Made by a program: the position numbers and the translations under genes. DNA of 43,043 bases from Nemertoderma westbladi. Taxonomy: Eukaryota; Animalia; Xenacoelomorpha. Positions 3,340-42,839 of this stretch are shown one piece after another (position 1 is the first letter of the stretch; every line of letters starts with the position of its first letter). The stretch lies in the NCBI GenBank assembly GCA_032718475.1, contig JAUCBJ010000115.1, forward strand, positions 1 through 43,043. The letters run 5' to 3'. Below the pieces are notes generated by a model. The model was not told the DNA's origin and searched no databases. It saw only the letters and a program-made list of their open reading frames with translations.

Positions 3340-3765
3340 ACGATGCCACATCACAACACAACCAAGACAAAGGGGAGGTTTCGTCTCACATACTGGACAA
3401 TAGTAACGAGTTAGGACAGTTATAGCTCCCTTGTTTGCATAACAAACACGACACCTTCGGCGAGGTTTAGGGTCTTTCTCGGTTGGTGGTAACAGGTCAA
3501 CAAAGTGATATGTATTACTCGTACTTGGCTGTGGGGAATGTGGAGCAGGGGGATGACTCACAGGATGAATCACGTGATGAACAGTATACACGTTTCAATG
3601 ATCTGGCAGAATGTATATGGGTTAGATGAAGCACAGTCATCTTTAAAAAATCGACATAAGTAGCTTTTTTGTTGTCCTCACATTTATACATTAGGTAACC
3701 ATTTACAACCAACCGAGCAATGAAGTTAATTCCAATCTTCTTGAACCATAAATGATTCTTTCTTA
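3340..3765 (-). pseudogene. piggyBac transposase C-terminal fragment (frameshifted)
   Basis: RKNHLWFKKIGINFIARLVVNGYLMY followed by the cysteine-rich domain RRRCRVCY..TRYYCPVCETKPPLCLGC. Confidence 0.8.
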
Positions 3766-4450
3766 TGGCCGGTCGTCCACAACTACACTTTCCATGAGTT
3801 GGTTGCCAGAGAAGTAGATCTGGTATGACCTCGTATTTACTTCGCCAGCAGTGCCCACTGAATCTTAATCTGCATTCACGGAGGGTGGTTGATACAGGTG
3901 GTATTGTACCATAAAGCTCGGCATTTGTCATGTGTTGTCTCCAGCTGATGTTTAGGGCTGCCCTTAGTAGTCTTGTGTAGCAACCATCAATTCGTTGTTC
4001 AAGTGATTTAGTCTGTGTCCAGGTCTCACCCCCGTATAAAAAAGATATCAATCCAATGCCTGCAATAATTACTTCTGGTATTCCATAAGCTCTTAGGATT
4101 TCAAGCATTTTACCTCTATGGATGGAGTCGAATGCCTTCTTGAAGTCCACAAAACTAATGACTGCGGGGAGATTCTTTGACTTAATTCCTTCAATCAGTC
4201 ACCATAGTGCAAGTATCTGAGCTATTGTTGATCTACTTGGTCGAAATCCGTTTTGGCTCTTATGCAGTAGTTTCTCTATGTGAGGCCTAATCGTATATAG
4301 AATCATCTTATTTCATATATTCATTTCATATAATCATATATTTTCCTTGTAGGGCTGACCTCGATGTTTGGTGGCTGCCTAAGCAAGTTGCTGAAGTGAT
4401 GTTTCCACTTCCCAACATGTTCTTCAGGACTATCGGCTTTGAGTCACCCC
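3766..4450 (-). pseudogene. RTE-clade non-LTR retrotransposon fragment with internal deletion
   Basis: QNGFRPSRST, FVDFKKAFDSIHR, LYGGETWT, RLRFSGHCWR, LLLWQP; upstream KWKHHFSNLL linker; RT core deleted. Confidence 0.85.
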
Positions 4451-9676: not shown

Positions 9677-10240
9677 TTAACATCCAAGGTGCGAAGTAGG
9701 TCTAACTGTCGCCGAAAAGGGGTAACTCTTACTACTACTGCCAATGGTTCCATTTGGGAGAGTGATCCTAAAACTGGCTGTTCTGGATTCTTCGTGCGAC
9801 TTTCTCTCTATATCGGATGGTTTCACTACCACATTATGTACTGCCAGCAGTGCTATAATGCCTTCTTTATTTGTCTTTGGGTTTAGATGAAACACAAATA
9901 TGTCTTGGTCAGCTGCTTGCAGCGGTCCCACTTCCTTTCCACCGCCTTCGATGAAGGCGGGTTTGCGTCTCCGTCTCGGAGGAACAGTTTGAAATTGTTC
10001 CTCATCTCCATCATCAGCTATGCTGGGTGATAATCGTGGCCTTTTCATACTACCTGAAATTGAGCCTTGCTTCGAATGTGGTGGAGTAGCCCAGTTCGGG
10101 CCAGATTGGCCCTTTGTAAAATCACACCGCTGCCTGTTTAAGGGTGGCGGTCCTAAATTACCATTGCTTCTCAAGGTGTAATTGGATATGCCTGATGTAG
10201 CTGCAGTTTTGTATGACTGTGTTTGCGGTAATGTCGTTGG
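9677..10240 (-). pseudogene. 3' half of a non-LTR ORF1-like gene (RRM-like), interrupted by the LTR element
   Basis: DIFVFHLNPKT..SFRITLP RRM-like end; in frame with 27241-26675 once the insertion and one TSD are removed. Confidence 0.7.
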
Positions 10241-10374
10241 TTGACTATAGAATTATATCCTCACAAAAACCGTGGATTTTCGAAATTTTATTTTGTTGGA
10301 ATAAACTTGTTAAAAGAATTACATTAAGTTCTCATTTGTATTTACCATGTCTATTTGTACAATGTTATTCAAGT

Positions 10375-10458
10375 GGTTCAGTAGCTCAGTCGGTTAAGCG
10401 TTGGAAATTTGTCTAGTAGGTATAGAGTTCAAATCCTAGCAGGTGCAAATTGTTTTTT
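10375..10458 (+). ncRNA. tRNA-like Pol III cassette inside the 5' LTR
   Basis: A-box TAGCTCAGTCGG, B-box GAGTTCAAATCC, T6 run at 10453-10458; acceptor stem poorly paired. Confidence 0.6.
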
Positions 10459-10649
10459 GTGCTGAATTTCAACTAATTTAAATTGACCGCTACAGTTTAA
10501 TTGCATGCACTTAGGTAGATTAACCAATGTAATTGCAGTTATTTGATAGTAACCAATGTCGTGTAAGATATGTGTTTGCTGGACCAATAGTTATCTTTGA
10601 AATCCAATATAATTCATGGAATGTTCTCGATTGTTTGCAGCACAAATTT

Positions 10650-10660
10650 GCTATAAAAGG
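10650..10660 (+). promoter_or_regulatory. TATA box in LTR
   Basis: GCTATAAAAGG, present in both LTRs. Confidence 0.45.
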
Positions 10661-12109
10661 TGCGATTTCATTCATTAATTACTAGATACCACTAGATACC
10701 CCTATCTAACTACCTTAACAACACTCTAGATTAGCAGTATTCAGTATTATTGTATTGTATAGATTTATTTCAGATTACATTTTGTATTAGTATTATCTAT
10801 CTGTCCTTTTACTATGTTTCACCACGGTGAACGCCCCTAAAGAACAGGATGGCCGGCTAGACATCGGGCCGCAGCAGTGAACGGGAACATCGGGGAATGT
10901 GAACAGGAGACCGCCCACAATATCTATTCGAGTTATTCGCCCATCGCCTGAAGGTTAGACAGTGTTCGATGCTTCGCTACCTAAGTGTAAGACCTAAGAT
11001 CGACGGTAGGAGTAGCGACACACTGTACGCCAAAAATTTAAATTAAGAACTGTATTGTCCCAATTCTTGGAAAACCAGCAGAACCCCTTCATATTCCTAC
11101 GGGAAGGAGAAAAGGAAAGTTAGACAGAGATACCCGTACGCAGATAGGACACAGGCACACCATTACCCGGCATGTATATTGGTAGGGTGCAGCAAAACTG
11201 TACGCCTAACTCATTGTCAGGTATAGGTGCGTTGGTGGCTTGTCGGCAGTATACGGTGTTTATTGCTTGCGTTGGAACTTGTAGGCCAGGAGAGGGTTGC
11301 TGTGTTTTCTCTGAATTGAGATTATACCATTCAGGCGGTAGGGCAGTTTATTGCTAGGCGAAAATAAATTAAGGCTAATTAGGGATACTAACACCTACCG
11401 TGTCCCCGCCAACGTCCTGATAGGAAGTTACCCAGCCTACCTAGGTGACTAAAATTCCAGATAAGAGCCAGGATAGATATTTGTAACTATACGCCTACAG
11501 TAGTAAACTAACACATTTCTTCTTAGTATTAGGGACCTGGTAGATAAAATTGCCGAATTCTGGGCGTAGCATTAACCCTATACCTGAATTTGAGTCCTGG
11601 AAATACACAAAAGGGGAAGGAGCCTTGTCATTTGTAAGTATTGGACCTACAAGTTACCAAAATATTAGAATATTTGTAAAATAAACGCCGGACCCAGTAA
11701 ATGAGAGTATATGAAGGATAAAACCAATTTTGACCTATGAAATAAAACACACGCGCGTTTAGGAATTATTTACACCTCAAAATATATAAAATAATTTGTT
11801 CGCACTGCTGATTTTCCCGCTAGTTATATTTGTAGCTAGCGCTTTTTCATCATATAAATCACACCGCGCCTTTAGTCCGTCAGTGAGTCAGCCCGATTTT
11901 AGGATTCGCTGCGTGGGATTTTGTTTTATCGAAGTTTGTCCGTTCGTAGACTGTTTTCTGCCTCACCGGTTATAAGAGACCGATACTGCAATAGGTTCGC
12001 TTACTTGGAGTTTACTGTTTTGGTGAGAAGGTCGGATTTATGCTTTGATTCACAGACTCTATAGTATGATATTGCAGGATTCGTGTATTTGTTACTGTCT
12101 CTTCATTTA

Positions 12110-12121
12110 GTAGGAATATGA
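12110..12121 (+). promoter_or_regulatory. Primer-binding-site position; non-tRNA, complementary to LTR 11089-11100
   Basis: GTAGGAATATGA is the exact reverse complement of TCATATTCCTAC; no TGG-start tRNA PBS nearby. Confidence 0.6.
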
Positions 12122-12710
12122 TTTACTGAACTACAGTTCAGTAGAACAAAATTATTTGAAAATTTTGTATTTTGAGGTAAAAATTCGTATTTGATTAGCT
12201 AAGTGCTAATATTTTGAATAAAATTTTGATTTGAAACGCGTGTAAAATTATTTGGAATTGAATACCGGTGTTTAAAAGGGTTTAAATACCATATTGTACC
12301 GGTACAAAATTTTCGTAAAAGTAAAACCAAACTCTTTTGTTTTTCAGGATTCAGAGCTCATTTCTAGGCTGTAACGGGAGCAAGACCGTGTTTAGCAAGT
12401 TTGGGAGATAGATAGCCCAACAACTTTGGTTGGGAAAATCGCACTTCATCCGCAACGCTGGAAACGGAAAGGTTCACGTCCGGTTTGTATCTGGGAATCT
12501 GTTTTTCTGGAGAATTATTAGAGTGGGTGAGTTTGAAAAGTTGCATTAATCAGTTAGGCATTACCGTATTAGTTAAAATTATTGTGGGTTCCACTGTCTC
12601 AAGTATTTATGCATTCCGTACGATTTCTTTGTTTATTGCTGAATTAGTCCGTAATTATTTGTGTTTGATTCGTATTTTGATAACGTATATCATTATCCGA
12701 TTTATTTATT

Positions 12711-12834
12711 ATAAAATTGGCCGTTAGGCTAATTTTATTATATACTTATACCGTGACATTTATTTGCTGTAAAATTGGCCGTTTAGGCTAATTTTATCCA
12801 TTTGCTATAAAATCGGCCGGTAGGCTAATTTTAT
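12711..12834 (+). repeat. Three hairpin-forming repeats in the 5' leader
   Basis: TAAAATYGGCC-N4-5-GGCTAATTTTA at ~12711, 12769, 12807. Confidence 0.75.
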
Positions 12835-12920
12835 ATGACTGTAATTAGTACCGTTTAAATATAAATACGGTAAATTTGATACTTTGACACTCACATTTTA
12901 CTTGACTTACAACTACCGAA

Positions 12921-15900
12921 ATGAGTGACAAACAAGACTATACGAAGAATACACCTACCGACTATGACTCATGTGACGCGGATAAGTCAGTAGCGGAAGA
13001 ACCACAGGGGAAGACTCGCGAGCCTACCGAACCTACACCGTGTGCGTCACCAGTACATCCAACGGGAGTACCGGATGCCGTAGTACGAGGCGACGGCAGG
13101 ACCGAGGACTTTCTAACTGTTCCGCAACCTAGATACAGGGAAACGGACATGGTAAGTCCAGTAGGAAGCCAGGAGAGCGTAGTTAGAAGTGTCGGAGGAT
13201 ACATGGCGCATATTACCAGGAGTATTGGAGAAGGCCAACGCATATTAGACGAGTTGACCACTCCGATGTCTCGGTTTGAGTTCTACACCCTCCAGGTTAG
13301 AGTACAAAGTAGAGTACATAAGTCCGTAGATAACCTTATCAGTCTACAAGATCTAGCTAGACAGAGACAGGACGTGGATACTCAACTTAGAATCCTCGAG
13401 AAACTAATGATCGCTAGAGAGAAACTGATTCAGTTTAAGTCGACGATTAGGCAGATACAACAGGAACAAGCGGACCAGTTGTTAGGTGAGTCAGTTTCGG
13501 ACGAATTATTGCAACCCGAGGAAGAACAGGAACTGTATAGGCTGGATGGACAATTGAAACACCTGACGGATCACTTACGCATGTGCGGAGAGGACGTCGG
13601 AGATTGGGAAACCGTGCCGGAGGCTACGAGGGAAACTTCACTCGCACAAATCGAGCTGGCACCAGGAATACTGGATCAATCGTTAGTAAGTATTCGCAGC
13701 GAGATTAACGAGGTAAGCATGGTAACGTCAGAAATTTCTCGACAGCAACAACAGTTCGACAGACAACAACAAGACATGGAGGAACAAACTCAACTGCTAA
13801 TGATACAAGCAGCAGTAGAGGAAGAGAAACTACGTGTTGCGAATGTTGCGAGAATCTCTCATCTGCAAGAACAAGCTGAGTTGGAAGCAGCCGAAATGGA
13901 AAGGTTAGAGTTGGACATTGCACAACAAGCGGCAGCGGCCGAGTTAGCGCAACGAACAGCAGCGGCCGAGTTAGAGCGACAAGCGGCAGCGGCAGCAGCA
14001 GCGTCCGAGTTAGAGCGACAAAGGTTAGCTTCAGAAGCGAGAACCGAAATGAAAAAACGGCAAATAAAGGCTCAATCAGCTATACGACAAGCGGAGTTCG
14101 AGGCGCAACAACAACAGACGGAACAACGCGAGAAAGAAGCTAAACTTAATTTCGAACTCGAAAGGAAGGCGAGAGAATTAGCCAACGCCAAGGAGGATTT
14201 AGATCTCAAAGCCCGCGATCGATCGATGAAATCTCGAGACGGACACGATCTAGACCGGATAGAGGTAAGGCACCGCCAAATTCAGGAACGGATGAAGGAA
14301 GGAAGCGTAGGAGCACCTGAGACAGAACGGGAATTAGTTAAAGACTTATGTCAACGATTTCCTCAAGTAACTCCAATGTTTGTACCAATTACGAATAAAG
14401 GACCTGTTTCGATTGCGGGTAGTAGTAATATTTCTCCTATCCATGGTGCGACGGAGCACAGGTTTGTTATTCCGGACAAGTTTTTATCGCCAAGAGCAAC
14501 GTCATCGCCTATTCCGAAAGTCAAGGTAAGTAACCCACCGATTACCGATCGTAGTAGTTTATTGACCGGACCTGCACTACTGACGACTAAACAGGTGAGT
14601 CCACCTTCGACACCCAAACCTGTCACGCACTACACTTACCCAATGACGTTTAAACCTACAAGGCCTTTAGATTCAAACGCTGTCACTCGACCACCGGTTC
14701 AGTTTACATCGCAATCTACGACTTCGAGGAAGACTTGTGAGCCTACTGAACAACGGAGACCAGTGGATATGCGACCGTTTAATCAGTTTACATCGCAATC
14801 TACGACTTCGAGGAAGACTTGTGAGCCTACCGAACAACGGAGACCAGTGGATACGCGACCGTTTAATCAGTTTACATCGCAATCTACGACTTCGAGGAAG
14901 ACTTGTGAGCCTACCGAACAACGGAGACCAGTGGATACGCGACCGTTTAATCAGTTTACATCGCAATCTACGACTTCGAGGAAGACTTGTGAGCCTACCG
15001 AACAATGGAGACCAGTGGATATGTGACCGTTTAATCAGTTTACATCGCAATCTACGACTTCGAGGAAGACTTGTGAGCCTACCGAACAACGGAGACCAGT
15101 GGATACGCGACTGTTTAATCAGTTTACATCGCAATCTACGACTTCGAGGAAGACTTGTGAGCCTACCGAACAACGGAGAACAGTGGACGATGTTCCGAAA
15201 CGGAATGTTAGAATTCGAACGACGCAACGGACACGAGCACGTCGGCCACCGTATCCAGGTGACAGTAGTACTTCGAGTGAATCGGATTACCCGGAACGCG
15301 AGGTATTTAGAACAGGAGCGGCCGACGAATATAAACGTGAGCGTTCAGATAACTCCTTTATCGAGAATCCTCTACAAAATACACCAACACAGAAGGCGTT
15401 ACAACCAACGGACGCAATTAGTACGCAACAACTCGCCGAAATAATGCGCCCAGTTGTTAACAAGTTGGCCCAGATAGAGGAACGTTTAGAGGAAACTCAA
15501 ACTGATAGTTCGCGAGGTACCGAGTTCGAACACTCTAGACACCCGAAGCAGCAAAGAAAACAACCCTCGAGAAACACCTCGTATCAAAGAAAAGCGCCAA
15601 GACGAGAGAACATCAACTCGATTGCCAACCAAGGACGCGAAACTTTGAACGTGGCCGAGGAGATAGCGAAATTCGCAGCCAGACAAGGACTACCGGTGCA
15701 ACAACCACCTAAGTTTTCCGGTAACTCTAAACATTGGCACAATTTCGTGGACTACATCGAAACACAAATAGCAGCGTGCGCCTTTTCATCAAGGGAAAAG
15801 TTCAACTACCTGCTACAAACGCTGACGGGAGAACCGAAACGTCTAGCGGAGACCTTTGTCGGTGTACCAGACGCCTTCGAACTAGCGTATAATCGCTTAA

Positions 15901-17366
15901 CTTCGATTTATGGAGGCACCGTAAGCATGGCTAAGTCAGTGATAGAAGAACTCTGTAAGGGGGGGGGGGGGGCTATAACAAAACCCGTTGACTTACTGAA
16001 ATTAGCTGACGAGATTAAGAACGCCATTACTACACTACGCTCGATTGGACAACTTGACTACGCGAACACTCCGACAGTCCTATTGAAAATAATAGGAAGA
16101 TTACACCATCGACTTCGTCGGGAGTGGCGAAAGATAGAATATCAGCGAGAAGAGAGAGGCGGATTCTTGAAGTTGGAAGACGTCTACTTACTGATATCCA
16201 GAGAGGCAGTAGTCGAGACGCGTTCGAACTACAAGGACCAACATATCGTGGCGGAAGGAATAACCTTACCATCCTCAAACAGACAAAAACCACCAATGAC
16301 ATCTACAAAGACGGTTACCTACGCAACATCGACCGACACCCGACAATTTTCGGACGGTAATAGAGTATCCGCGCCCATTGGAACCAAACAGACCCGACAG
16401 CAACTGAGCACAGACTTTAGCGGTTGCCAATACTGCGAGCAGCTAGGCAAGCGACACACCACTCATAAGTTAAGAGGTTGTCGGTTATTTCACGAGTTAA
16501 ACTCGGAAGAACGACGGCTGCAGATACGGCCATTGGACTCTTGTTGGCGGTGTACGCAACACAGACATGTTCGCAAGGACTGCCCAAATACGGACACCTG
16601 TCCTTCCTGTGGACGCAACCACGACGGCTTGCTCCATACAGACAGCCATACGCCGACCAAACGCTTCACTAGGGAACACCCGGAAGCAGCAGCGAAATGT
16701 AATACGGCCTACAAGAATCGTGAATCGAGAACAACTCCAACTTTTGTGACGCATATTCGGGATTGTTTTCCGGAGCAGTCCGGGTCTTCTGACGAAGAAA
16801 CCGAGGACGACGACGCATACTCAGTCGGAGACGAACAACCATCGATCGCGCTTCTGACGACTGACCAACTAAAAGGTTTCAGCGTAATTCCTATTAAGAT
16901 TACTGGCACCAAAGGGAGCAAAAGGATCTACGCTATCCTGGATTCAGCCTCATCTCACAGCTATGTGGATGAGAAGGTAGCTGATGTCGTGACGGATCTC
17001 CGACAAGGTAAGAACGTCAGTTACACAGTAAGTAGTATGCATGGACAACGTGCAATACCAGTGACACGAGTTAAGTTAAACTTAGACACTCTTCTTCCGA
17101 AATCGCAACACAGCGAAAAGGAGAGGTCTTTGTTACCCTTTAAGGATTTGACTTTTGCGGCCACCAAGGACTTTAGTAACCTACTGGGTCCAGTGCCGGA
17201 ACAATCCTTAGAGGACCGTAAGTATTTCAGACACCTTGGTGTACCTGAATGTCCTGTCAATTATCGGTCAGTAGCAATGCTGATCGGGACAGACCAAATT
17301 CAACCTACATCAAGTGTGGGAAACCAGACCATCGGTAGTCGTAGCGGGAAACGCATACGCCTGTAG
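12921..17366 (+). pseudogene. gag: gag plus aspartic protease (premature TGA at 15024-15026, frameshift near 17300)
   Basis: Long coiled-coil N-terminus; PPKFSGNSKHWHNF (DUF1759-like); three Cys/His knuckles (CQYC, CWRC, CPSC); protease AILDSASSHSYV; the two ORFs share a frame. Confidence 0.9.
14700..15188 (+). repeat. 84-bp (28-aa) tandem repeat, about 5.8 copies, inside gag
   Basis: Unit QFTSQSTTSRKTCEPTEQRRPVD(M/T)RPFN; near-identical copies. Confidence 0.95.
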
Positions 17367-20300
17367 AACGCCGATAGGTTGGTTTGCTCGAGCGCCTGTG
17401 CGCACACTAGATATAAGTGACGAAGAGGATGATGTACAAAGTACATGTAGTTTATTAACTACAACTTCGATTCATTCCTTTTCACCTGACATAGACTATA
17501 CTACACTACGTTCGAAAAAACACGACAACGTAACAAGTACGACGTGTGTAGCAAATACGATAAGTCATAGAAAGCAGCCTATCCACAACATTAGTATAGA
17601 GCGTGAGAAGGAGACGAGTCAGGCAGAGGTTCCATTGACAACAGATGATAACGCCGGAAGGCTTGCGAGTCTACCTCAACCAATAACGTTAACGATGCCC
17701 GTCGATGTCGATGTCGACACATTAAAGAATTGTCAAGTGGAACAAGCTGCACTGGACAAAGAATTAACAGAGAAGACTATCAGGTAGTTAGAACAAGATA
17801 CAGCAGAACCCGGTAGTTACGAACCATGTATGTCAGAACAAGAGAAACAATCTTTGAAGATCATGGAAGATACTATCCGCCAGACGAAAGACGGACATTA
17901 TGAGGTAGGGATGTTATGGCGTAACCAGAGTCCTAAACTCATAAATAACTATCCGCTAGCTTTAAGACGTCTAAATTCAATACGACAACGTTTATTGAAG
18001 GACGAGAAAGCCCATCTGCAGTATAATACCCAGATGGAGACGTATTTAACAAAGGGATACGCTATCAGAATGACTAACCCAGAGATTGTGACAGACCAGA
18101 CATACTATTTGCCACATCACTACGTGAGACACCCTGACAAACCTGATAAAGTACGCGTAGTTAATGACTGCGCGGCCCTGTTTGAAGGAATGTCTCTCAA
18201 CAGTGAGTTGATGGACGGACCAAACATGAATAATTATCTCATGGGGGTGATTATGCGCTTCCGTCAACGCCAGGTAGCCTTTACTTGTGACGTCGAAGCT
18301 ATGTTTCACCAAGTGCGAGCGTTAGAGCGAGACAGAGACAGTTTGAGGTTCCTCTGGTACCCGGAAGGAGACTTAAGTCTACCACCGGTGACTTACCAAA
18401 TGCAAGTTTGCGTTTTCGGTGCCAGAGACAGCCCAAATTGTACTATGTACGCCCTAAAGCAGACCGCTAGGGACCAGAAACATATGTATGACCCAGAGGT
18501 AATCCAAATCGTAGAATGAGACTTTTATGTGGACGATGGATTACAAAGTTGTGACACAGTAGAACGTGCTATTACAGTAGCACATCAATTACGGGACTGC
18601 TTAGCGGGCGGAGGTTTTAACCTCACCAAATTCGCCTCAAGCAGTGCCGAATTGGTAGATTCATTCGGAACGACTGAGCGTGGAGGTGGTGACATTGACC
18701 TGGAGTTCGAACCACTACCGACGACAAAGGTGTTGGGGCTCTTTTGGGACCCAAACACGGACAACTTTCGAGTGAAGGTGAGACTGGACACTCAAGGAAA
18801 CACTCTGACAAAGAGATCCTGCTTGTCTAAATTGAGTCGATTGTTCGATCCATTAGGTTTCATCAGCCCAATAATACTGCAAGCCAGAATTTATATGTGC
18901 AGTATTTGGAAAGATGGACTGACATGGGACAAACCGATCTCATCAGAACAAGTGGACTTATGGAAAACCTGGGAGGCACAATTATCTTCGCTAGAGGATT
19001 ATTCCATACCCCGAGTGTACTTTCCATTACAAACGACATTTCCTGATAACTTAGAATTACATTGTTTTTCCGACGCCAGCGACAACGGCTTTGGTGTGAC
19101 AGCGTATTTGCGCAGACAAGTAGATTCAGACGAGTTTGATGTTTCGCTCATTACTTCTAAGGCTAAGACCATACTACAAGCTACTACAAGCCGCAACTCT
19201 GTCAACTACCATTGTAAACCTTATACAGACAGAATTACAGTCAAGTTTACAGATATTTTATTGGACTGACGCGACGTTAGTTTTGTTTTATATAAACAAC
19301 GACACACTTGAATTCAAGACATTTGTGGCTAACCGTCGTGCGGAAATCTTGGACCGTTCAATAAAGGAAGATTGGCGACATTGTCCCGGACCACAAAATC
19401 CAGCTGATATTGCGTCGCGAGGAATGATGCCTGAGGAATTCTGTAAACCGGAGAACAAAGAATTTTGGCAACACGGACCACAATTCTTGCAAAGATCAGT
19501 ACAACATTGGCCACCACTTTACGACAACAAGTCTAACACTATCCCTAAAGACGCCGAAATTAAAAAACCAAAGAAAGGGAAAGCAAAGAAAAGGACGGCG
19601 GCTAAACTCAAGAAAAAACCAAAGGCGAAATGGAAAGATATAACTTCAAAAGTCAAGAACGGAAGACTTGCGAGCCTTTCTACGCCAGACGGTCAACCAG
19701 ACGCGTTACTAGACGGTCAACCAGACATTTTGCCAGACATAACACAAAATGTTCTACCAGACACTAGTAACATATTGACAAATAGTAAAGCCGCAGTTTC
19801 TCTATTGGAGCGGCCTTCTATTGACAAACAACCAGACGCATTACTAGACAGTCAACCGGACGTTTTGCCAGACATGTCACAAAGTGTTCTACCAGACATG
19901 TCACAAAATGTTCTAGCAGACATTAGTAATGTATTGACTAACAGTAAAGCCGCAGTTTCCCTATTGGAGCGGCCTTGTATTGACAAACTACCAAACTTAA
20001 CACTCTTGAGTAACCATAAGCACAGTGAAACCTCATGTATTACAGATGTGGGTAGTACCTACGCAAATGTAAATACAGGTGTTACTTTACGCTCAAGAGA
20101 CATACCAAACTTGCAACCTACGGTGATACCTGGGATAAATATCGGCAGAAAAATAAGTTTACCGAAACCCAGTGATCCCATAGAGTTAAAACCACCATTA
20201 GGGATCGACACACAAAGTACCGACAATCAAGGTAAGAAGACAAAGAAGGACAAATTACTTGTAGACCCGGACGGATCAACAGTCAACAAGGGAATACCTA

Positions 20301-21892
20301 CCGGCGGACCCGTGGGCCCTTCTAGTAAATCAAAACCTTCCAAATTCTCCATTGACTTACCTGATGACGTCACAAATACTTACGTCGACCGTATTGTAAA
20401 CCTAACAGATTCTTGGACAAACGCTTGCCGAAAATTAGCGTGGATTGTACGTTTTGTACAATACATTAAAGGCAAACGCGACTTTACACGTCGACTTACA
20501 TTGACTGAGATTGACAGGTGTGAAATTAAATTAATTCGCCATTACCAACTGCGATATTTCGCACGCGAATTCACATCTATAAATCAAGGTCAACCAATCA
20601 AGTCGTCACCAATATTGAGTTGGAGTCCGATAATTTATAATGGCTTAATTTGTCATAAATCTCGGCTTCAAAACATTGACTTTAACACAAACTTTAGGTA
20701 CCCAATAATAATACCGCAGCATCACGAATTACAACGTGCAATGATACTGGACGCACATTTACATCTAAAACACGCTGGAAGACACCACTGTCTTTCATAC
20801 TTACGTACTAGATTTGTATTAATTAGACCCAGTAAAGCATTAAGTTCAGTGACGCGTACGTGTATTATTTGTAAAAAGGTACACTCTAGAATAGGTACCC
20901 AAGAAATGAGTGAACTTCCACAAGCACGACTTCAAGCATTCAGACCACCTTTTACAGAGACTGGAATTGACTGCTTTGGTCCCATACTTACGAAACGTGG
21001 ACGTATACTAGTAAAACGCTGGGGACTGATTTTCACTTGTATGTCCAGTAGGGCAGTTCATATTGAACGTGTGATGGATCTTTCCACCAACGCGTTTATA
21101 CTAGCATTGCGGCGATTTATCGCTAGACGCGGACTAGTGAAATGCTTGTACTCAGACCAAGGTACAAACTTTGTTGGTGCTCGAAATGAAATTGCTAGAG
21201 CCTTTAAGAAATTAGATCATGATCAAATCTCAAACGAACTACGTCCTTACAAGATTGTTTGGAAGTTTAATCCTCCAGATAGTCCATGGAGAGGCGGAGT
21301 CTGGGAGAGATTGATTAGATCTATAAAAACGGCAATGGCAAAGGTAATTCCAGTAAACCACATCTTGACAGACGACCAACTGACCACATTGTTTGTTGAA
21401 ATCGAGGCAATACTAAATACTAGACCAATAGTATTAGTACCCGATGACAAACAATCCCAGTTTGCTTTAACACCGGCACACCTGCTTATGCAGGCACCGA
21501 CTACTTTGACGCCTATTTCTTTTCCAATGGAAGGCGATAGCTACGGTAGAAAAGCGTGGAAAATCACGCAACTACTGGCTAACAAATTCTGGGAAATATG
21601 GCAAAACCATTATTTGCCCTCTATTTCTGCCAGAACAAATTGGTACAACAATACTCGCGCTTTAAAGCCGGGAGATCACGTGCTGTTAGCGGAAGTGAAT
21701 CTAAAAAGACGCTTCTGGATAACAGGTGTAATTTTAGCCACACATCCATCTATGGATGGAGTGACAAGAACCGTGACGGTACGGACAATTGACGGTCGTA
21801 CAGTTGACAGAGTGACTCAACGTCTCGTACTTCTAGAAGAGACTCGAAACGAGTCTGGAGACTACAAATCTCCAACTAATGTTAGTAAATAA
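17314..21892 (+). pseudogene. pol: pol: reverse transcriptase, RNase H, integrase (stops at 17785 and 18517, frameshift near 19170)
   Basis: YLPHH, KVRVVND, DVEAMFHQV, FYVDD, LHCFSDAS, WTD, NPADIASRG, HAG..CIIC, GIDCFGP, SDQGTNF, GGVWERLI, DUF5641-like tail. Confidence 0.95.
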
Positions 21893-22553: not shown

Positions 22554-23450
22554 ATGGAGAAGGGGATACATGGAGAGCCGAGATGGGGATATGATATCCA
22601 AGAGGAAGCAGCAGCTCCATTCGAGAGATTTGGAGCTAAAGACTACACTATATTTGGTATAAAGGAATTATCAGAAAGTACAGCGAAACTCGCGAGAACG
22701 AAATATAACTCGAACGTATTAAAGAGGAGGCAAAATGCGTTAAATGAAAGAATCGAAAGTTTACGCAAAACCTTCAACGAACTTTACCCGTACGACGCTT
22801 TGTGTGATACGGGAGATATTAGCGAAGACCCCGATACCGAAATAAGTCGTTTGTATCATACCATGCAATACCTGAAGGCGCATGAACCTATGCCTGCGGT
22901 ACGCGATGAATTCGATGGAATGCATCTTTACAGACGAACACGAGGGGACGATAGAGAAACGAAGGAAGCATTTTCAGTTTATAAACTTTATTATCAATGT
23001 GGTGCTTGTATGCGCGAACAACGAAATGCGATTCCGATGCGTTTGAATAAGGAAAATCCCGAACCGATATTGGCGAGGTGTTCGAACCACCAACAACTAC
23101 GCTACCAGGAAGGAGGGTATCTTTTATCAAATCCATATCATTCATTTGCTATGACTGGACCAAAGGCGGGAGAAATTGTCGTTTGCCCACCTAAGGTTGT
23201 TGAACCCGATGCATTTGAACTTACGCTGGACGAGGCGAATCAGTCAACCCGCGAAAAGAAAGAAGCTCTTAGCCTATACAGAGCCTATAAGGCTTTCGAG
23301 AAAGGTGAGATGGAAGAATGGGGCAGAAGACTCGCGAGCCTACCTTACCATTGGACGTCACACGATCAAACTTCAGCTAAGGAGATGACACCGGAAATTT
23401 TCGAAAGTATAAACTTTGCCCAAAATGTTCAATTGTATCACATATGGTGA
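22554..23450 (+). CDS. Accessory ORF3a of the retrotransposon; unknown protein with bHLH-like and CxxC..CxxH patterns
   Basis: 298-aa ATG-initiated ORF between pol and the 3' LTR; no signal peptide or TM helix visible. Confidence 0.7.
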   Translation: MEKGIHGEPRWGYDIQEEAAAPFERFGAKDYTIFGIKELSESTAKLARTKYNSNVLKRRQNALNERIESLRKTFNELYPYDALCDTGDISEDPDTEISRLYHTMQYLKAHEPMPAVRDEFDGMHLYRRTRGDDRETKEAFSVYKLYYQCGACMREQRNAIPMRLNKENPEPILARCSNHQQLRYQEGGYLLSNPYHSFAMTGPKAGEIVVCPPKVVEPDAFELTLDEANQSTREKKEALSLYRAYKAFEKGEMEEWGRRLASLPYHWTSHDQTSAKEMTPEIFESINFAQNVQLYHIW

Positions 23451-24066
23451 ATTTGACCGTTTTCGAACAGAAAAGCGAAATAAAGGAGCTTGGTTAACCG
23501 TCGCATGGGTGTACCGAGCCGCGTTCTATCATAGGCGTATACGAGTGAGCGTATTCGAGGAAGAGGAGATCCTAGAGGCGACCGACATACCAGCCACTCC
23601 GGTTGCACCGTCTGCACGTCACCCTCGGGAGGACGGACAGGGTAGGATCATAAGGGTCCAGAAGGTGAGCCAACAATTAAAGAAGTCTATTAATATAGAA
23701 GAACGCAAGGGAGTTGAGCCGACCATTCGAATTACTCGGGATACAGTATCGCTTCCTAGAGAACCAACAGGAGGATCGGGACATACACCAGCTGATCAAA
23801 AGGGGGCGCAAGCTACTCTTGGGTCTGCGTCGTCTGCTTCCCGCGCGTTCCCAGACGTTTTACCAACTGTAGTGACAACTGATCGGTCACGAGGAATCGG
23901 TCGAGGTTTCGGGATATCTAATAGACGAATTTGTGAGGAAATGGTCGCACCGTCTCCCAACGTCCAAGCGAAACCAGTGACTCGCCCCACGAGTCCCATA
24001 TCGCGAGCAAAGTCACCTGTACGCAGTTTTCGAGGACGCGGCAGGGCTCAATCAACAAATCGGTAA
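23416..24066 (+). CDS. Accessory ORF3b; probably a frameshifted continuation of ORF3a, basic/disordered with RG motifs
   Basis: Overlaps the ORF3a end, TTG start, RGIGRG and RGRGR tail. Confidence 0.55.
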   Translation: MPKMFNCITYGEFDRFRTEKRNKGAWLTVAWVYRAAFYHRRIRVSVFEEEEILEATDIPATPVAPSARHPREDGQGRIIRVQKVSQQLKKSINIEERKGVEPTIRITRDTVSLPREPTGGSGHTPADQKGAQATLGSASSASRAFPDVLPTVVTTDRSRGIGRGFGISNRRICEEMVAPSPNVQAKPVTRPTSPISRAKSPVRSFRGRGRAQSTNR

Positions 24067-24760: not shown

Positions 24761-24770
24761 CATGGAGCGG
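24761..24770 (+). promoter_or_regulatory. Short polypurine-tract candidate
   Basis: ATGGAGCGG directly before the 3' LTR. Confidence 0.4.
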
Positions 24771-26674
24771 TATAGAATTATATCCTCACAAAAGCCGTGG
24801 ATTTTCGAAATTTTGTTTTGTTGGAATAAACTTGTTAAAAGAATTACATTAAGTTCTCATTTGTATTTACCATGTCTATTTGTACAATGTTATTCAAGTG
24901 GTTCAGTAGCTCAGTTGGTTAAGCGTTGGAAATTTGTCTAGTAGGTATAGAGTTCAAATCCTAGCAGGTGCAAATTGTGTTTTGTGCTGAATTTCAACTA
25001 ATTTAAATTGACCGCTACAGTTTAATTGCATGCACTTAGGTAGATTAACCAATGTAATTGCAGTTATTTGATAGTAACCAATGTCGTGTAAGATATGTGT
25101 TTGCTGGACCAATAGTTATCTTTAAAATCCAATATAATTCATGGAATGTTCTCGATTGTTTGCAGCACAAATTTGCTATAAAAGGTGCGATTTCGTTCAT
25201 TAATTACTAGATACCACTAGATACCCCTATCTAACTACCTTAACAACACTCTAGATTAGCAGTATTCAGTATTATTGTATTGTATAGATTTATTTCAGAT
25301 TACATTTTGTATTAGTATTATCTGCAATAAAATCAGAATTATCGCTATCTGTCCTTTTACTCTGTTTCACCACGGTGAACGCCCCTAAAGAACAGGATGG
25401 CCGGCTAGACATCGGGCCGCAGCAGTGAACGGGAACATCGGGGAATGTGAACAGGAGACCGCCCACAATATCTATTCGAGTTATTCACCCATCGCCTGAA
25501 GGTTAGACAGTGTTCGATGCTTCGCTACCTAAGTGTAAGACCTAAGATCGACGGTAGGAGTAGCGACACACTGTAGGCCAAAAATTTAAATTAAGAACTG
25601 TATTGTCCCAATTCTTGGAAAACCAGCAGAACCCCTTCATATTCCTACGGGAAAGAAAAAAGGAAAGTTAGACAGAGATACACGTACGCAGATAGGACAC
25701 AGGCACACCATTACCCGGCATGTACATTGGTAGGGTGCAGCAAAATTGTACGCCTAACTCATTGTCAGGTATAGGTGCGTTGGTGGCTTGTCGGCAGTAC
25801 ACGGTGTTTATTGCTTGCGTTGGAACTTGTAGGCCAGGAGAGGGTTGCTGTGTTTTCTCTGAATTGAGATTATACCGTTCAGGCGGTAGGGCAGTTTATT
25901 GCTAGGCGAAAAAAAATTAAGGCTAATTAGGGATACTAACACCTACCGTGTCCCCGCCAACGTCCTGATAGGAAGTTACCCAGCCTACCTAGGTGACTAA
26001 AATTCCAGATAAGAGCCAGGATAGCTATTTGTAACTGTACGCCTACAGTAGTAAACTAACACATTTCTTCTTAGTATTAGGGACCTGGTAGATAAAATTG
26101 CCGAATTCTGGGCGTAGCATTAACCCTATACCTGAATTTGAGTCCTGGAAATACACAAAAGGGGAAGGAGCCTTGTCATTTGTAAGTATTGGACCTACAA
26201 GTTACCAAAATATTAGAATATTTGTAAAATAAACGCCGGACCCAGTAAATGAGAGTATATGAAGGATAAAACCAATTTTGACCTATGAAATAAAACACAC
26301 GCGCGTTTAGGAATTATTTACACCTCAAAATATATAAAATAATTTGTTCGCACTGCTGATTTTCCCGCTAGTTATATTTGTAGCTAGCGCTTTTTCATCA
26401 TATAAATCACACCGCGGCAAAGTATACGAGCGCCTTTAGTCCGTCGAGTGAGTCAGCCCGATTTTAGGATTCGCTGCGCGGGATTTTGTTTTATCGAAGT
26501 TTGTCCATTCGTAGACTGTTTTCTGCCTCACCGGTTATAAGAGACCGATACTGCAATAGGTTCGCTTACTTGGAGTTTACTGTTTTGGTGAGAAGGTCGG
26601 ATTTATGCTTTGATTCACAGACTCTATAGTATGATATTGCAGGATTCGTGTATTTGTTACTGTCTCTTCATTTA
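24771..26674 (+). repeat. 3' LTR (1904 bp)
   Basis: Direct repeat of the 5' LTR with extra 23-bp (25323-25345), 16-bp (26417-26432) and 1-bp segments. Confidence 0.95.
24900..24983 (+). ncRNA. tRNA-like Pol III cassette inside the 3' LTR
   Basis: A-box TAGCTCAGTTGG, B-box GAGTTCAAATCC, T4 run. Confidence 0.6.
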
Positions 26675-27241
26675 TTGACTGTTTAATCCATTACCTGGCT
26701 GGATATTGTTCTGTGCTCCAGAAATCAGACCAGGCCAAGCAGATTTTGCATGTGCAGCATTACTGGATAAATTTGAGAGTTTGTCAATAATATTCGATTC
26801 TAACGTTTTTAACTGCATGCTAAACGACTCTTTAGCCTCCCCTATTTTTTTCTCCATATTTTTTTTCATAAAATCAATTCGTGTTTTTATATCCTCTTCT
26901 TCAATGTCCATTGGCGTGCCCGTTGCTAACTTTGGTAACGAAAGGGCCTCTAGGGCTCCAACAGCAATAACTGGCAGTTTTCCCTGTGAGTCTAACTCGG
27001 CTAATTTGTCCATTATATCCTTAAGAATAGCCTGAGCTGCCGATCTATCGTTAGTGTCTTTTCTCTTAATAAAATCGATGTTTCCCACCTCCTCGAACAG
27101 CAGACGTTTCGCCTCCAATATCTCTTCTGCTGTATAGTGCTTAATGTATAGGCCTATACTAGAGGATCCTCCAGTTATCTCAATTGGCGAGAATGCCGAG
27201 GTAATGTTTGTTGACAACAACTGGCTCGAAACATTCTTCAT
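26675..27241 (-). pseudogene. 5' half of a non-LTR (CR1/L2-group-like) ORF1 gene interrupted by the LTR element
   Basis: YTAEEILEAKRLLF..KRK..DIMDKL..LPVIAV..LPK N-terminal pattern, then coiled coil. Confidence 0.7.
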
Positions 27242-30949: not shown

Positions 30950-31299
30950 TTTTTTACTTTTATCCATAGGATATAAGTATAAGATAAGATATAGGTATAA
31001 GATATAAGTACTCACCTCCCTTGCAAGCCTCCCTGTGATCGTCCTGTATGTCTTGTCACAACAATAGTATATAGAAATTGTCGAAATTGGAGGATCAAAA
31101 TTTTTTTGGCTAGGCCTTGCTACGCCCCAAGCTGCCATTCAAATTAAAGATCAACATATATACAACAAAATTATTGCTAAACTGGGTTTCCCCAATTTGC
31201 CCAAAAGGACAAAAAATGACATCCAAATATTGATATCAATACCAAAATTGAAGGATTTCACTCTTGGTACTTACCAAAAATAGCACTTATAAACGAAAT

Positions 31300-32010
31300 G
31301 GAGAATTGACACCAGTTTTAATCGAATCAGCACCCTCGAAAACCTGTAAATACCGACAATTATCAATTTCTGTCTAACAGTATAGATTTTAACATATTGT
31401 GCCATGCAGCCATGTGCCACAAATATGTGTCACATGCTAAACTGGCACAACTGTGTGATAGCGGAATTTTAAACTATTTTCAATCGTATCAGCACCCTTG
31501 AAAACCCATAAGTACTGAAAATTGTCAATTTTTGTCTAGCAGGATAAATTTTGATATTTTATGCCATGTGCCGCAAACATTTGCCACATGCTAAAGTGGC
31601 ACAATTATGGAACCACGGGATTTGAAACTATTTGTAATCGTATCGGCACCCTTGAAATCCTATAAATAATGAAAATTCTAAATTTCTATCTAGCAGTAGA
31701 TATATTTGTATCTTGTGCCAAGTTCCGCAAACATGTGCCACATGTTAAAGTGGCACGTCTGAGTGACAGCGGAATTTGAAACTATTTGCAATCGAATCAG
31801 CACCCTCTAAAACCTCTAAATACTGAAAATTGTCAATTTCTGACTATCTGTAGTAAGTTTGATATTTTGTGCTATATGCTGAAAACATGTGCCACATGCT
31901 AAAGTGGCACGTCTGAGTGACAGCGAAATTTGAAACTATTTGAAATAGAATCAGCACCCTCAAAAACCTCTAAATACTGTAAATTATCAATTTTTGACTA
32001 TCACTAATAT
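31300..32010 (+). repeat. ~154-bp tandem repeat, about 5 copies
   Basis: AATCG(A/T)ATCAGCACCCT-like anchor at ~31321, 31482, 31636, 31790, 31944; further copy at ~32385-32500. Confidence 0.85.
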
Positions 32011-33149
32011 GTAATAAGTATTAATAATTAATATTAATTAGTAATAATAATTCGCAATGAGTGTGACCGCAGTCCACTTAGCGACCGCTCCCCCACCCCC
32101 CAGTGGCGTCTGAAGAGTGATGCCTCGGTTGTGAAGAACAGACCAAGTCTATTATAATAACCAAAGCGAGAAAGCATATTTGTTACTGTAATAGTTATCC
32201 GGTTATTGGGTAATAAGTATATTGGTGTTGGTGAATATTCAATATTTCAGAATTGAAATCCTAGTTGTCATTGTATTATTTATACTGCATTATAATTATA
32301 TTCTACGAGGCCAAAACATATTTGGTTATTATCTAGGATACTCAATATATGGGATAATTAGCTAAAATAAGTAATAAGTAATAATATTTTGTGCCATATG
32401 CCTCAAACATGTGCCACGTGCCTAATTTGTCTAATCTGTGCCACCACGGAATTTGAAACTATTTGCAATCGCATCAGCACTCTGGGAAACTCATGAGAAC
32501 CAAAAGCTGCGGCATTCTGGCATTGTTTATCATATTTCCCAAATATGATAATATTGGCAGATGCCAAGAAATGATGGCACAACGCCAAACATTGATACCC
32601 TTCCCAAACGATTCAGAACACTTGAAAACCCGTATTGAAGAAAAATTGTTCTTAAAACATGAACACTTTCCGAATTAATGCATTTTGGCCACAAATCATG
32701 GTTTCTGACCCACTGTGCAACACCAACAACACTGACAAATCGCAACAGATGATGCAAAATTGCATAATATAAGACATGCATAATTGTCTATTTATTGAAA
32801 ATGATTTCAGTTATTTTTGCCTTTTTGAAGGCCCGTATTTCTTCAGAGTCCCTTTGCAGGCGACGCTTCCACTGCTGCCATTGCGGCTCCAAATTGTCGT
32901 CGAGGGAAGTGGTGGACGTAGAGCTAATATTAATAGAAGTGTCTTCGGCGCACTCTGGATTCGCAATCCGTTGGAGTATCAATGCTACTGCTCTAGCTAT
33001 ATGTGTATATACTAATATGTGCTATATTACAATATTAAACTCCCCCAGAAACATATTAGCATTGCTAATATTTTTCTGGGGGAGTTTAATATTGTTTGTA
33101 GGTTCTAGAATAGTTTCAATGTCAATGGGGATAGAGTCTTATCATAATG

Positions 33150-35264: not shown

Positions 35265-36640
35265 TACAATACAATACTACATATGGTTAATCCTATGGAC
35301 ATATACTTGGCTATATTGTGAGTTTGTCTTTAGAATAATTACAAGTGACCATTATAAGCGCAACCAATTTTTATTTCTCAACAGTTAATTTAAATACAAT
35401 AACATAACTAATTTATCATTATCATACCACATACCATTATCAACATCCACATACCCAACCCTCCATGAATATTAGCCCACCTTCCACGAACCTTCACCCA
35501 CCTTATTTAACCCTTTTCTCACCTCCCATGAATTCTCACCCACCCTCCCAGAACCTTCGCCCACCTTCACCCACCCTCTATCACCATTTGCCCTCCTCCC
35601 GCCGCCGCGGGAGGAGGGGTTGATACCCCTCCTCTATGGAGGGGTATCACCCATTCTCTATGACCATTCGCCAACCTCCCACGAGCTTTCACCAACCCCT
35701 CTGACCATTCGCCAACCTCCCACGAGCTTTCACCAACCCCTCTGTCCCTTTTCTCATCTTCCATTAATCCTTACCCAACCTCGCAGACCCTTGTCTGACC
35801 TTCTATAAATCCTCACCCACACTCTATGACCCTTCTCTCATCTTCCTTCCAAGAATCTTCACCACCCTCTCTGACGCTTCGCCCACCCTCTACGAAACTT
35901 GACCCAACCATCTCTGAACATTGCCGAGCCCGTTGAGGAATGAAGGAGACACTGCAGCCAGTGATAGGTAACATTAAAAAAAATTAGTTCATATCGTAGA
36001 TTTTAACGTACCAGTTATATTTCTCAAACCAATCAAGTGATCATTAAGTGTCTTGTGGTAACTAGATATATTACACAATACTGCAAATGGTCATTCCTAT
36101 GGACATATACTTGGCAATATTGTGAGTTTGTGTTTAGGATTATTACAAGTGACCATTTCAAGCAAACTCACTATTTCTCAAAATTAAATTAAATTACAAC
36201 AATGTAAATAAATTATTAACCCCTCCCACATTCCCAAACCACCCACACCATTTTCTCACCTTCCACGAATCTTCATCCCACCCTCCCTGACCTTTAGACC
36301 ACCTTCACGAATCTTCACCCACCCTCACTGTCGCTTCACCAACCCTCTCTATGCAGACTCTGCACTGCAGACAGTGATAGGTATCATTTAAAATAAATTA
36401 CTTATTAGCTGTTAAAGAAGCAGCTATATTTCCAAACAAACAAGTGATCATTAAGTGTCTTGTATGTATATATGATCTAACACAATACTACATATGGTAT
36501 TTCCTACTGACATATACTTGGCTATATTGTGAGTTTGTATTTAGGATTATTACAAGTGGCCATTATTAGCAAACAGTTACTATTTCTCAAAAGTCAATTT
36601 AAATAACACAACATAACTAATTTGTCATTCACCACCCACC
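35265..36640 (+). repeat. Three diverged long repeat units interleaved with C-rich degenerate minisatellite
   Basis: CAATACT(A/G)CA..GACATATACTTGGC.ATATTGTGAGTTTGT at ~35273, 36077, 36483. Confidence 0.75.
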
Positions 36641-39679: not shown

Positions 39680-40800
39680 CAACTACTACTAGGATCGGCA
39701 TGCTGCATTGCAGCTGCATTTTTAAGAATGCTGTGCCGGCTTGTCAACAAAATTACGCCGCCACAACTCCCTATCACCCATGACATTTGCTAGATCATCC
39801 GCATCTTTAAGGCCAGTGTCCTTTAAGATGCGTCTCAAGAAAGTCATGGGCTGTCCACCATGCTTATTCACTCCATGGGGCTGCCAAAGTACAAGATTAT
39901 GCACTGGCTGGTCCTCACGGCGAAAGCAATGTCCTGCAAAGCGGAGGCGATTTTGTTCTAGTGTCAAGCTTGGGGGAACCAATGAGACACCTCCAATGTT
40001 ATATAGTGTCTGGTTGGAGATGTGTGCATTGTACTTGACACAATGTACCCGGCGTAGCATTCTTGTGAATGTGCCATCCAGAGATTTGGTGTCCTCAGCA
40101 GTTAGAGCCCAGCATGGACTCCCGTAGAGGAGTACTGGAACTACTGCTGCTCTAAATAATCGGACCTTAAGTTTCCGATTAATTCTAGGTGACTTCCAAA
40201 TCCTGGAAAGCCTATTCAAGGCTGCCCATGCCTTTCCCTTACGTATTCGAAGGTCCTCACCTGACTTCCGGATCCATGATCCCAGGTAACAGAAGTCGTC
40301 CACATGCTCAAGCATACCATCCTTTGAGCTTATGCTCATCCGATCAGAGACTTGCTGAGGACTTTCAAAGTTAACTGTCAGAATTTTGGTCTTTCTGGAG
40401 TTAATAAAAAGACCAACACTAGAAGCAGCATGTTCTAATGAGCTGAGGAGCCGCTGGGCTCCCTCTAATGATTCTGAGAGTACTCCTAAGTCATCAGCAA
40501 AGTCTAGATCAGTTAGGTACTTGGCAGGATTTCCTCGACTTCTGGAGCCAGTAGGTGGAGTTATCATCACCCCATCATCATTATGATGATCTAAGGACAT
40601 GCGTAGAACATAGTCAACCACAATAATGAACAAGAATGGTGCAAGTGTGTCTCCTTGGAGGACGCCCCATAACACTTCAAATGGTTCTGTGTCACCGTCA
40701 ACAGTAGACACAAATGTTGTCGAACCATCGTATACTGATCTGATTGCTGCAATAATTTCATCAGGAATCCCATATAATGAAAGTATGCTGAACATACGTG
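39680..40800 (-). mobile_element. 5'-truncated RTE-clade non-LTR retrotransposon (RT C-terminal 357 aa open, 39722-40795)
   Basis: GVLQGDTLAPFLF, LDFADD, FCYLGS, RLRFAGHCFR; short (TAG)n-like tail. Confidence 0.92.
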
Positions 40801-42269: not shown

Positions 42270-42670
42270 ATACAAACATTAATGAGAGACTCAAATGTTA
42301 ATCAGGGATACTAACATTAATGAGGGACATACAATAAGGGGCACAAACCATTAATTAGGGACACAAACATTAATCATGGATACAAACATTAATCAAGGAC
42401 ACACATTAAGGGGCACAAACCATTAACACAAACATTTTAATGAGTGACACTAACATTAAACAGGGATACAAACATTAATCAGGGTCACAAACATTAATGA
42501 GAGACACATATTAATCAGGGAGACAAACATTAATGAGGGATATAACAATGATTAATGAGGGACACAAACATTAATAAGGGACTAAAACAGTAATCATAGA
42601 CACTAAAATAAATCGGGAACACAAACATTAATGATGGATTCACATTAATCAGGGGCACAAACATTAATAG
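42270..42670 (+). repeat. ~21-bp minisatellite
   Basis: ACAAACATTAAT(C/G)AGGGA(C/T) units. Confidence 0.85.
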
Positions 42671-42839
42671 GGGTGAATGCTTGACAATGGATATTAATAT
42701 GAGTAATGGTAATGCTTGCCATCAGATGATCAGATATTAAGTGATTAACTGATAAAATACTACCATGGGAACGTGAGCTTTGATCAAAGTAGCGCCGTGA
42801 TAATAATAAGCCGTTAAATAATAATAATAATAAATTAAA

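What the first reader, a model, noticed from the sequence alone, without database searches (positions are those of the whole stretch)
11089..12121. Candidate self-priming BEL/Pao element: the PBS is complementary to its own LTR, not to a tRNA
Seen: the 12 nt directly after the 5' LTR (12110-12121, GTAGGAATATGA) are the exact reverse complement of LTR 11089-11100 (TCATATTCCTAC; also 25637-25648). The pairing ends exactly at the LTR boundary, so a 3' end at 11100 would prime minus-strand synthesis at the right base. No TGG-type tRNA PBS is present. A chance 12-mer match in 1.9 kb is roughly 1e-4 for uniform composition, somewhat more in AT-rich DNA. TCATATT also fits the YYANWYY initiator. Known: S. 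pombe Tf1 (Gypsy group) primes with the first 11 nt of its own mRNA after RNase H cleavage, whereas BEL/Pao elements are described as tRNA-primed. Inference: independent, tRNA-free self-priming in a BEL/Pao lineage. I know of no such report but cannot search.
Basis: partly seen in the sequence, partly recalled or inferred. Interest (0 to 1): 0.88.

Follow-up and report, generated by a model that had tools for sequence, protein, structure and literature searches.

The report
Self-priming BEL/Pao retrotransposon
This broken jumping gene of the BEL/Pao group has no tRNA landing site; in its place are 11 letters that pair with a stretch of its own terminal repeat, and most related families show such pairing with different letters, often only once a predicted intron is removed, so these elements likely start copying themselves with their own RNA rather than a host tRNA.

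Summary
Observation confirmed. A 16.4-kb BEL/Pao element (LTRs 10246-12109 and 24771-26674, TTGAC target duplication, broken pol) has no TGG primer site. Bases 12110-12121 are the exact complement of LTR 11089-11100 (chance about 1-2.5e-4). Across the family the match is 11 nt, because 12121 is usually T. No compensated change was seen among sister copies. In distant relatives, 22 of 24 scorable BEL families pair this site with their own LTR, using 16 different primer sequences: 17 across a GT-AG splice junction, 5 contiguous. The other 2 are tRNA-type. Non-cognate pairs reach 10 nt in 3 of 558. Self-priming is therefore likely and probably widespread in BEL/Pao, not peculiar to this element. 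No RNA data or host genome were available, so cleavage and priming are inferred. ICTV lists BEL/Pao as tRNA-primed and my searches found no contrary paper. This scan noted the same thing in seven earlier findings on other genomes.

The parts
10241..10245 (.). Left target-site duplication TTGAC
   Evidence: same 5-mer at 26675-26679
10246..12109 (+). 5' LTR, 1864 nt, ends TA...TA instead of TG...CA
   Evidence: junctions also seen in other copies
10652..10658 (+). TATA box (TATAAAA) preceded by four CCAAT boxes; would predict a start near 10682
   Evidence: function inferred
11090..11100 (+). Predicted self-primer core CATATTCCTAC (12 nt with 11089 in this copy); predicted cut after 11100
11089..11122 (+). 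Alternative promoter: Inr-like TCATATT plus DPE-like AGTTA at +28 to +32 from A11091
   Evidence: motif consensus recalled; weak
11101..11133 (+). Purine-rich run predicted to pair irregularly with the LTR end 12083-12108; not conserved in relatives
11680..11746 (+). Two AATAAA signals downstream of the predicted cut (26228 and 26289 in the 3' LTR); candidates for the end of R
12110..12120 (+). Primer-binding site, directly abutting the LTR, complementary to 11090-11100; no TGG
12921..17366 (+). gag and protease-like region (DUF1759, Cys/His knuckles), interrupted by a stop within an 84-nt tandem repeat
17284..21892 (+). pol (RT, RNase H/Peptidase_A17, integrase, DUF5641), in four pieces with stops and frameshifts
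22554..24066 (+). Extra ORF region after pol, in two frames; no homologue found for the first part
24764..24770 (+). Short polypurine tract GGAGCGG abutting the 3' LTR
   Evidence: relatives have GGGGCCGG plus a spacer
24771..26674 (+). 3' LTR; carries the primer core at 25638-25648 and an extra AATAAA at 25326 in 23 nt missing from the 5' LTR
26675..26679 (.). Right target-site duplication TTGAC

Best explanation
This is a defective copy of a BEL/Pao retrotransposon family whose primer site pairs with 11 bases of its own LTR and which likely primes reverse transcription with its own RNA, predicted to be cut after position 11100. Shown: the LTR ends, the lack of a TGG site, the 11-base complementarity, and its recurrence with different letters in relatives. 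Inferred: the 5' part of the genomic RNA folds so that 11090-11100 pairs with 12110-12120; the element's RNase H cuts after the final AC, as in Tf1; the new 3'-OH primes minus-strand DNA from 12109 back to 11101; this DNA jumps to the 3' LTR through an R region ending at a later AATAAA. Most relatives would have to splice an LTR intron to create the primer; this family carries it contiguously, possibly after intron loss. Whether the primer is only 11 nt long or the end of a longer capped leader is open; I lean to longer (about 60:40).
For: Exact register at the LTR boundary fixed by the target duplication. Predicted pairing probability about 1.0 for RNAs starting at 10950, 11020, 11060, 11074 or 11090. 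Of 80 loci in 42 clusters, 24 could be scored: 22 match their own LTR over 10-15 nt, starting 0-6 nt after the LTR end, and 2 carry TGG sites and score 5. Among the 12 with LTR ends fixed by flanking DNA, 10 match (9 without the widened donor rule). Non-cognate PBS-LTR pairs reach 10 nt in 45 of 600, of which 42 lie among seven families sharing one primer, leaving 3 of 558. Sister families change both sides together: L054 and L079 at 2 pairs, and L023 and L068. The paired stretch ends in AC in 20 of 23 elements including the window's; the other three end in AT, AT and ACT. A[AT]TAAA lies after the predicted cut in 14 of 22 families (14 in 3593 nt) against 5 of 22 before the core (7 in 6823 nt). 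L042 and L063 lack the intron precisely at the junction used by close relatives L008 and L004. In one X4 contig 11 of the 12 LTR bases are kept where the flank no longer aligns.
Against: No compensated change within this family. The one LTR variant seen (T11092C, run X4) has no matching change in the single X4 contig over the PBS, though these may be different copies. RNAs starting at 10682 or 10830 are predicted not to form the helix (probability 0.0), yet the best TATA box points to about 10682. An AATAAA at 25326 would end the RNA about 320 nt before the cut and leave no R overlap if it were used. The second helix with the LTR end is not conserved (p 0.22), and the upstream helix seen in relatives is not seen in this copy (-2.7 kcal/mol). 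The window RT is a long branch (1.91) with at most 47% identity, so the relatives are distant and its place is unsure (quick tree only). For 12 of 24 families I set the LTR end by motif after seeing candidates, and I widened the donor rule after seeing three cases. Host tRNAs could not be compared.
Confidence: 0.75

Rival explanations
1. The primer is the element's own sequence but comes in trans or from the RNA's 3' part: a short or spliced LTR transcript, or the 3' LTR copy at 25638-25648, supplies the 3' end, not the 5' leader folding back in cis.
For: The TATA-started RNA is predicted not to form the cis helix. The 3' LTR carries the same 11-mer. A spliced primer in relatives could come from a separate transcript.
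Against: No poly(A) signal lies 10-35 nt before 11100; poly(A) signals lie after the cut in relatives. The cis helix forms readily from nearer starts.
Confidence: 0.12
2. The pairing is real but regulatory or structural (packaging, dimerisation, a switch masking the primer site); priming uses an unknown host RNA or protein.
For: Long-range leader pairings are common in LTR elements (recalled). Nothing here shows cleavage.
Against: PBS letters differ among 16 primer types and follow each family's LTR, which a conserved host primer would not allow. The two tRNA-type families lack the pairing. The pairing starts 0-6 nt after the LTR end, where priming must start.
Confidence: 0.08
3. For this family alone the PBS binds a tRNA fragment (the core begins with CAT, a Met anticodon) or the match is chance.
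For: Host tRNAs were not available. Half-tRNA priming exists in Copia lineages (PMC6317226, passages). No within-family covariation was seen.
Against: Chance is about 1e-3 for 11 nt, at the register and length and with the AC end seen in relatives. A primer ending 10 nt after the first anticodon base does not fit the half-tRNA ends I recall.
Confidence: 0.05

Closest known systems
Tf1/Tf2 (S. pombe), Tj1 (S. japonicus) and the Tf1/sushi and Tcn1 groups of Ty3/gypsy
   Same: 11-nt PBS complementary to the element's own LTR, no tRNA site. For Tf1 the first 11 bases pair with the PBS and RNase H cuts between bases 11 and 12 (PMC7175516, passage; PMC4600332, passages).
   Different: Different superfamily (BEL/Pao). 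The primer is not shown to be the RNA's first 11 bases; relatives pair further upstream. In 17 of 22 self-matching relatives the primer exists only across a splice junction, which I found described for no element. About 1 kb separates primer and PBS here.
TAR lineage of Ty1/copia (Houba, Osr-1)
   Same: Self-priming predicted from sequence outside the Tf1 group (PMC6317226, passages), so convergent self-priming has precedent.
   Different: Plant Copia elements; no splice junction is mentioned in the passages seen.
Belpaoviridae / BEL/Pao LTR retrotransposons (ICTV profile 2021)
   Same: gag-PR-RT-RH-IN order, DUF1759, Peptidase_A17, DUF5641, LTRs, PPT, 5-bp target duplication.
   Different: ICTV gives an 18-nt PBS for tRNA-Arg or tRNA-Gly, LTRs of 0.2-1.2 kb and genomes of 4.2-10 kb (PMC8742986, whole text). 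This element has no tRNA PBS, 1.9-kb LTRs with TA...TA ends, 16.4 kb and an extra ORF.

Membership tests
BEL/Pao (Belpaoviridae) | BEL-type Gag/Pol domains in the order PR-RT-RH-IN | tested here: met
   DUF1759 E 3e-11, Peptidase_A17 E 6e-33, DUF5641 E 6e-20; the listed RT hits, 40-50% identical, mostly carry the same domains
BEL/Pao (Belpaoviridae) | Two LTRs, PPT and target-site duplication | tested here: met
BEL/Pao (Belpaoviridae) | 18-nt PBS complementary to a tRNA 3' end (ICTV description) | tested here: not met
   No TGG in 12095-12140; also absent in 22 of 24 relatives (L079 has a TGG near its LTR end but matches its own LTR). Membership rests on the proteins, so the ICTV description appears not to be general.
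BEL/Pao (Belpaoviridae) | Placement in a named clade (Pao, Bel, Tas, Suzu, Sinbad, Sailor and others) | tested here: inconclusive
   Long branch, no named reference elements in the tree
Tf1-type self-primed elements | PBS complementary to about 11 nt of own LTR, next to the LTR end | tested here: met
Tf1-type self-primed elements | The complementary bases are the first bases of the transcript | tested here: inconclusive
   Inr/DPE-like motifs at the core against a TATA box 440 nt upstream; upstream pairing in relatives; no RNA reads to map starts
Tf1-type self-primed elements | RNase H cleaves the RNA duplex and the product primes cDNA | not testable with these tools
   Needs biochemistry; only a conserved AC at the predicted cut was seen
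Tf1/sushi group (Ty3/gypsy chromoviruses) | Ty3/gypsy Pol | tested here: not met
   Pol is BEL/Pao: it works like Tf1 but is not a member
Half-tRNA-primed elements | PBS matches an internal tRNA segment | not testable with these tools
   No host genome; ARAGORN found no tRNA gene in the window

The most novel reading that the evidence does not exclude
A large part of BEL/Pao replicates without tRNA, using a primer that the host spliceosome assembles: an LTR intron splits the primer, so only spliced 5' leaders can fold onto the PBS and be cut, while the unspliced 3' LTR copy is protected. The primer is the 3' end of a longer capped leader. This window's family is an intron-less derivative that has also lost end-processing spacers (TA...TA ends abutting PBS and PPT).
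Probability: 0.45. Interest if true: 0.88.

Novelty: new variant of a known kind. Interest (0 to 1): 0.72.

Why it matters
The ICTV profile says BEL/Pao elements are primed by host tRNA, while admitting their replication is poorly understood. If right, self-priming occurs in all three LTR superfamilies and may be the common mode in these BEL/Pao relatives, which would escape control through tRNA supply or tRNA fragments. The splice-junction form would tie the start of reverse transcription to host splicing. It also gives a concrete target for 5' end mapping and strong-stop primer sequencing, and shows that PBS finders based on tRNA lists would miss such elements.

Tried and rejected
No host genome is held, so there was no tRNA comparison or copy census. 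No RNA holder listed; X5 is only guessed to be RNA and does not cover the primer or PBS bins. Viral contigs held no relative. ARAGORN found 0 genes; Rfam gave only 3 sub-threshold hits in 10000-13000. A conserved second helix between post-cut sequence and the LTR end was rejected (cognate -6.6 against -6.2 kcal/mol, p 0.22). Homology of the window primer to the CAAA|TTCGAAC type (8 of 11 identical) is not claimed: with a shared AC end and about 16 types compared, my rough estimate is that chance gives it about one time in four. No shared Inr or TATA position emerged across 23 elements. The tree could not place the window RT or order the spliced, contiguous and tRNA states (careful search unfinished, only 11 of 39 rows labelled). 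18 of 42 clusters were left unscored because LTR and leader were not both in hand or were not resolved; L051 was rechecked and gave no match to its sister's motifs. A12121 as a trace of copying a longer primer was considered; a non-templated A or a point change explains it equally. The extra ORF had no homologue at near length; the atlas did not answer. Four primary Tf1 papers were not held.

Full report
Observation. The two LTRs align over 10246-12109 and 24771-26674 with 1843 of 1904 columns identical, 40 gap columns and hence 21 substitutions. TTGAC flanks both ends. The 12 bases after the 5' LTR are the exact reverse complement of 11089-11100, and the 12-mer occurs elsewhere only in the 3' LTR. 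Chance is 0.9-1.9e-4 by Markov models; empirically 10 of 39,245 non-LTR positions reach 12 nt, the PBS among them. There is no TGG near the boundary. Pfam places the element in BEL/Pao. gag and pol carry stops and frameshifts, so this copy is defective.

Sister copies. No genome was held. I laid public DNA contigs on the region (X1 and X2 are one sample and may be the window's source). Position 12121 is T in 19547 of 19804 depth units in X1, 19839 of 20110 in X2, and all depth in X3 and X4. The family pairing is therefore 11 nt, the length of the Tf1 primer. No variant row fell in 12110-12120 at the 1% threshold. That alone is weak, since one search lists about one variant per 10 nt and differences near contig ends are not shown. 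One X4 contig keeps 11 of the 12 LTR bases in a flank too diverged to align, but changes T11092 to C; the one X4 contig over the PBS shows no matching change. This counts against the model, unless the two contigs are different copies. One search showed only 40 of 267 variant rows, so the LTR side is incompletely seen.

Folding. An RNA starting at 10950, 11020, 11060, 11074 or 11090 is predicted to form the 11-bp helix with probability about 1.0, plus an irregular helix between 11102-11133 and the LTR end. RNAs starting at 10682 or 10830 are predicted not to form it. Folding of 1-1.5 kb RNAs is unreliable, so this is a hint only.

Relatives. An RT alignment retrieved 498 metagenome stretches, of which the best 80 were kept, 41-48% identical. 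They form 42 clusters; many may come from the same few hosts. 24 clusters could be scored, 12 with LTR ends fixed by flanking DNA and 12 with ends set by motif after I had seen candidates. Earlier scan notes prompted me to allow GT-AG junctions. Result: 17 families match their own LTR over 10-15 nt across a junction, mostly with GTAAGT or GTGAGT donors and pyrimidine-rich acceptors. Five match contiguously (L011, L042, L061, L064, L071). Two (L046, L037) have TGG sites and score 5. L017 passes the rule (11 nt) but not the stricter acceptor filter. L045, L054 and L079 need a donor rule that I widened after seeing them. There are 16 distinct primer sequences. Non-cognate pairs reach 10 nt in 45 of 600, 42 of them among seven families sharing a primer, leaving 3 of 558. 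The paired stretch ends in AC in 20 of 23 elements. Poly(A) hexamers are enriched after the predicted cut, as required if R lies there. L042 and L063 lack the intron exactly at the junction seen in L008 and L004. This shows the contiguous form can arise from the split form, though I cannot tell whether those records are RNA or DNA.

Where does the RNA start? In the window, an Inr-like motif at the core has a DPE-like motif at +28, but a textbook TATA box with CCAAT boxes sits at 10652. Across 23 elements the 22 nt upstream of the core pair better with their own post-PBS 14 nt than with others' (-7.3 against -5.4 kcal/mol, p 2e-4). Nine of ten displaced controls were not significant; the adjacent window gave 0.013. 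With close kin pruned to 14 rows, p was 0.013-0.063. This suggests the RNA extends upstream of the core in relatives. The window copy does not show it; the form with the family's usual base at 12121 was not folded, so this stays open. Against a longer leader, family F has a TATA box 31 nt before its core. An AATAAA at 25326, upstream of the cut, is unexplained.

Mechanism. Shown: boundaries, complementarity, absence of a canonical tRNA site, and family-specific matching in relatives. Inferred from Tf1 (PMC7175516 passage; PMC5341516 passages): fold-back, RNase H cut after 11100, priming, and strand transfer through a downstream R. Not tested: expression, start site, cleavage, splicing.

Literature. 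ICTV describes an 18-nt tRNA-Arg or tRNA-Gly PBS for Belpaoviridae (PMC8742986, whole text). Self-priming is described for Tf1/sushi and predicted for Tcn1 and the Copia TAR lineage (PMC6317226, passages; PMC4600332, passages). Term look-ups in the BEL/Pao survey PMC3118150 and the Sinbad paper PMC554778 found no mention of a PBS or tRNA. Passages of PMC6934838, PMC13524379, PMC8220671 and PMC5443660 did not report BEL self-priming. Eight searches listed no such report; most hits were seen only as listings. Subscription journals, Repbase Reports and supplements were not seen and could hold one. The scan itself recorded the idea in seven earlier notes on other genomes; a sequence look-up found none on this DNA. 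Those notes are not independent evidence, and my loci may overlap their hosts.

Verdict. A real feature and a new variant of a known mechanism. Self-derived priming is likely (about 0.85 in any form, 0.75 for the cis model). The window element is one of the simpler, contiguous cases of a pattern whose more surprising form is the splice-junction primer in its relatives.

Noticed in passing
window 10246-10250, 12105-12109, 24764-24775: The LTR ends TA...TA and abuts both PBS and PPT with no spacer; it ends CATTTA, which looks like the CA end plus spacer of relatives (CA then 2-6 nt). This family may integrate unprocessed cDNA ends. L011 and L039 end TG...TA.
   Followed up: partly
window 10375-10460 (and the 3' LTR): tRNA-like unit with A-box-like and B-box-like motifs and a T run inside U3; not called by ARAGORN or Rfam and does not fold as a cloverleaf.
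   Followed up: partly
window 12066-12125, runs X1-X4: Loose ends show other subfamilies whose LTR end holds tandem PBS-like repeats about 30 nt apart, some followed by an inverted copy; possibly duplications from mis-transfer.
   Followed up: no
window 22554-24066: Extra ORF after pol in two frames, with Cys/His residues in the first part; no Pfam or homologue hit.
   Followed up: partly
window 11634, 11883, 12349, 12527: Strong splice-like sites: donors GTAAGT/GTGAGT and an acceptor at 12349 flank the PBS, so spliced mRNAs would lack it.
   Followed up: no
L042 and L063 positions 131-738 against L004, L007, L008: LTR lacking the intron exactly at the predicted junction, with flanking DNA upstream; either a spliced RNA or a genomic intron loss.
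   Followed up: partly
window 14615-15271; 19694-19996: 84-nt tandem repeats in gag and a repetitive insert between RNase H and integrase.
   Followed up: no
window 3515-4198 and 39722-40810 (minus strand): Unrelated RT fragments; the second also matches DUF6451 below cut-off.
   Followed up: no
window 31277-32488, 35456-36347, 42274-42950: 154-nt tandem array with an inverted copy at 42843-42950, and two degenerate minisatellites.
   Followed up: no
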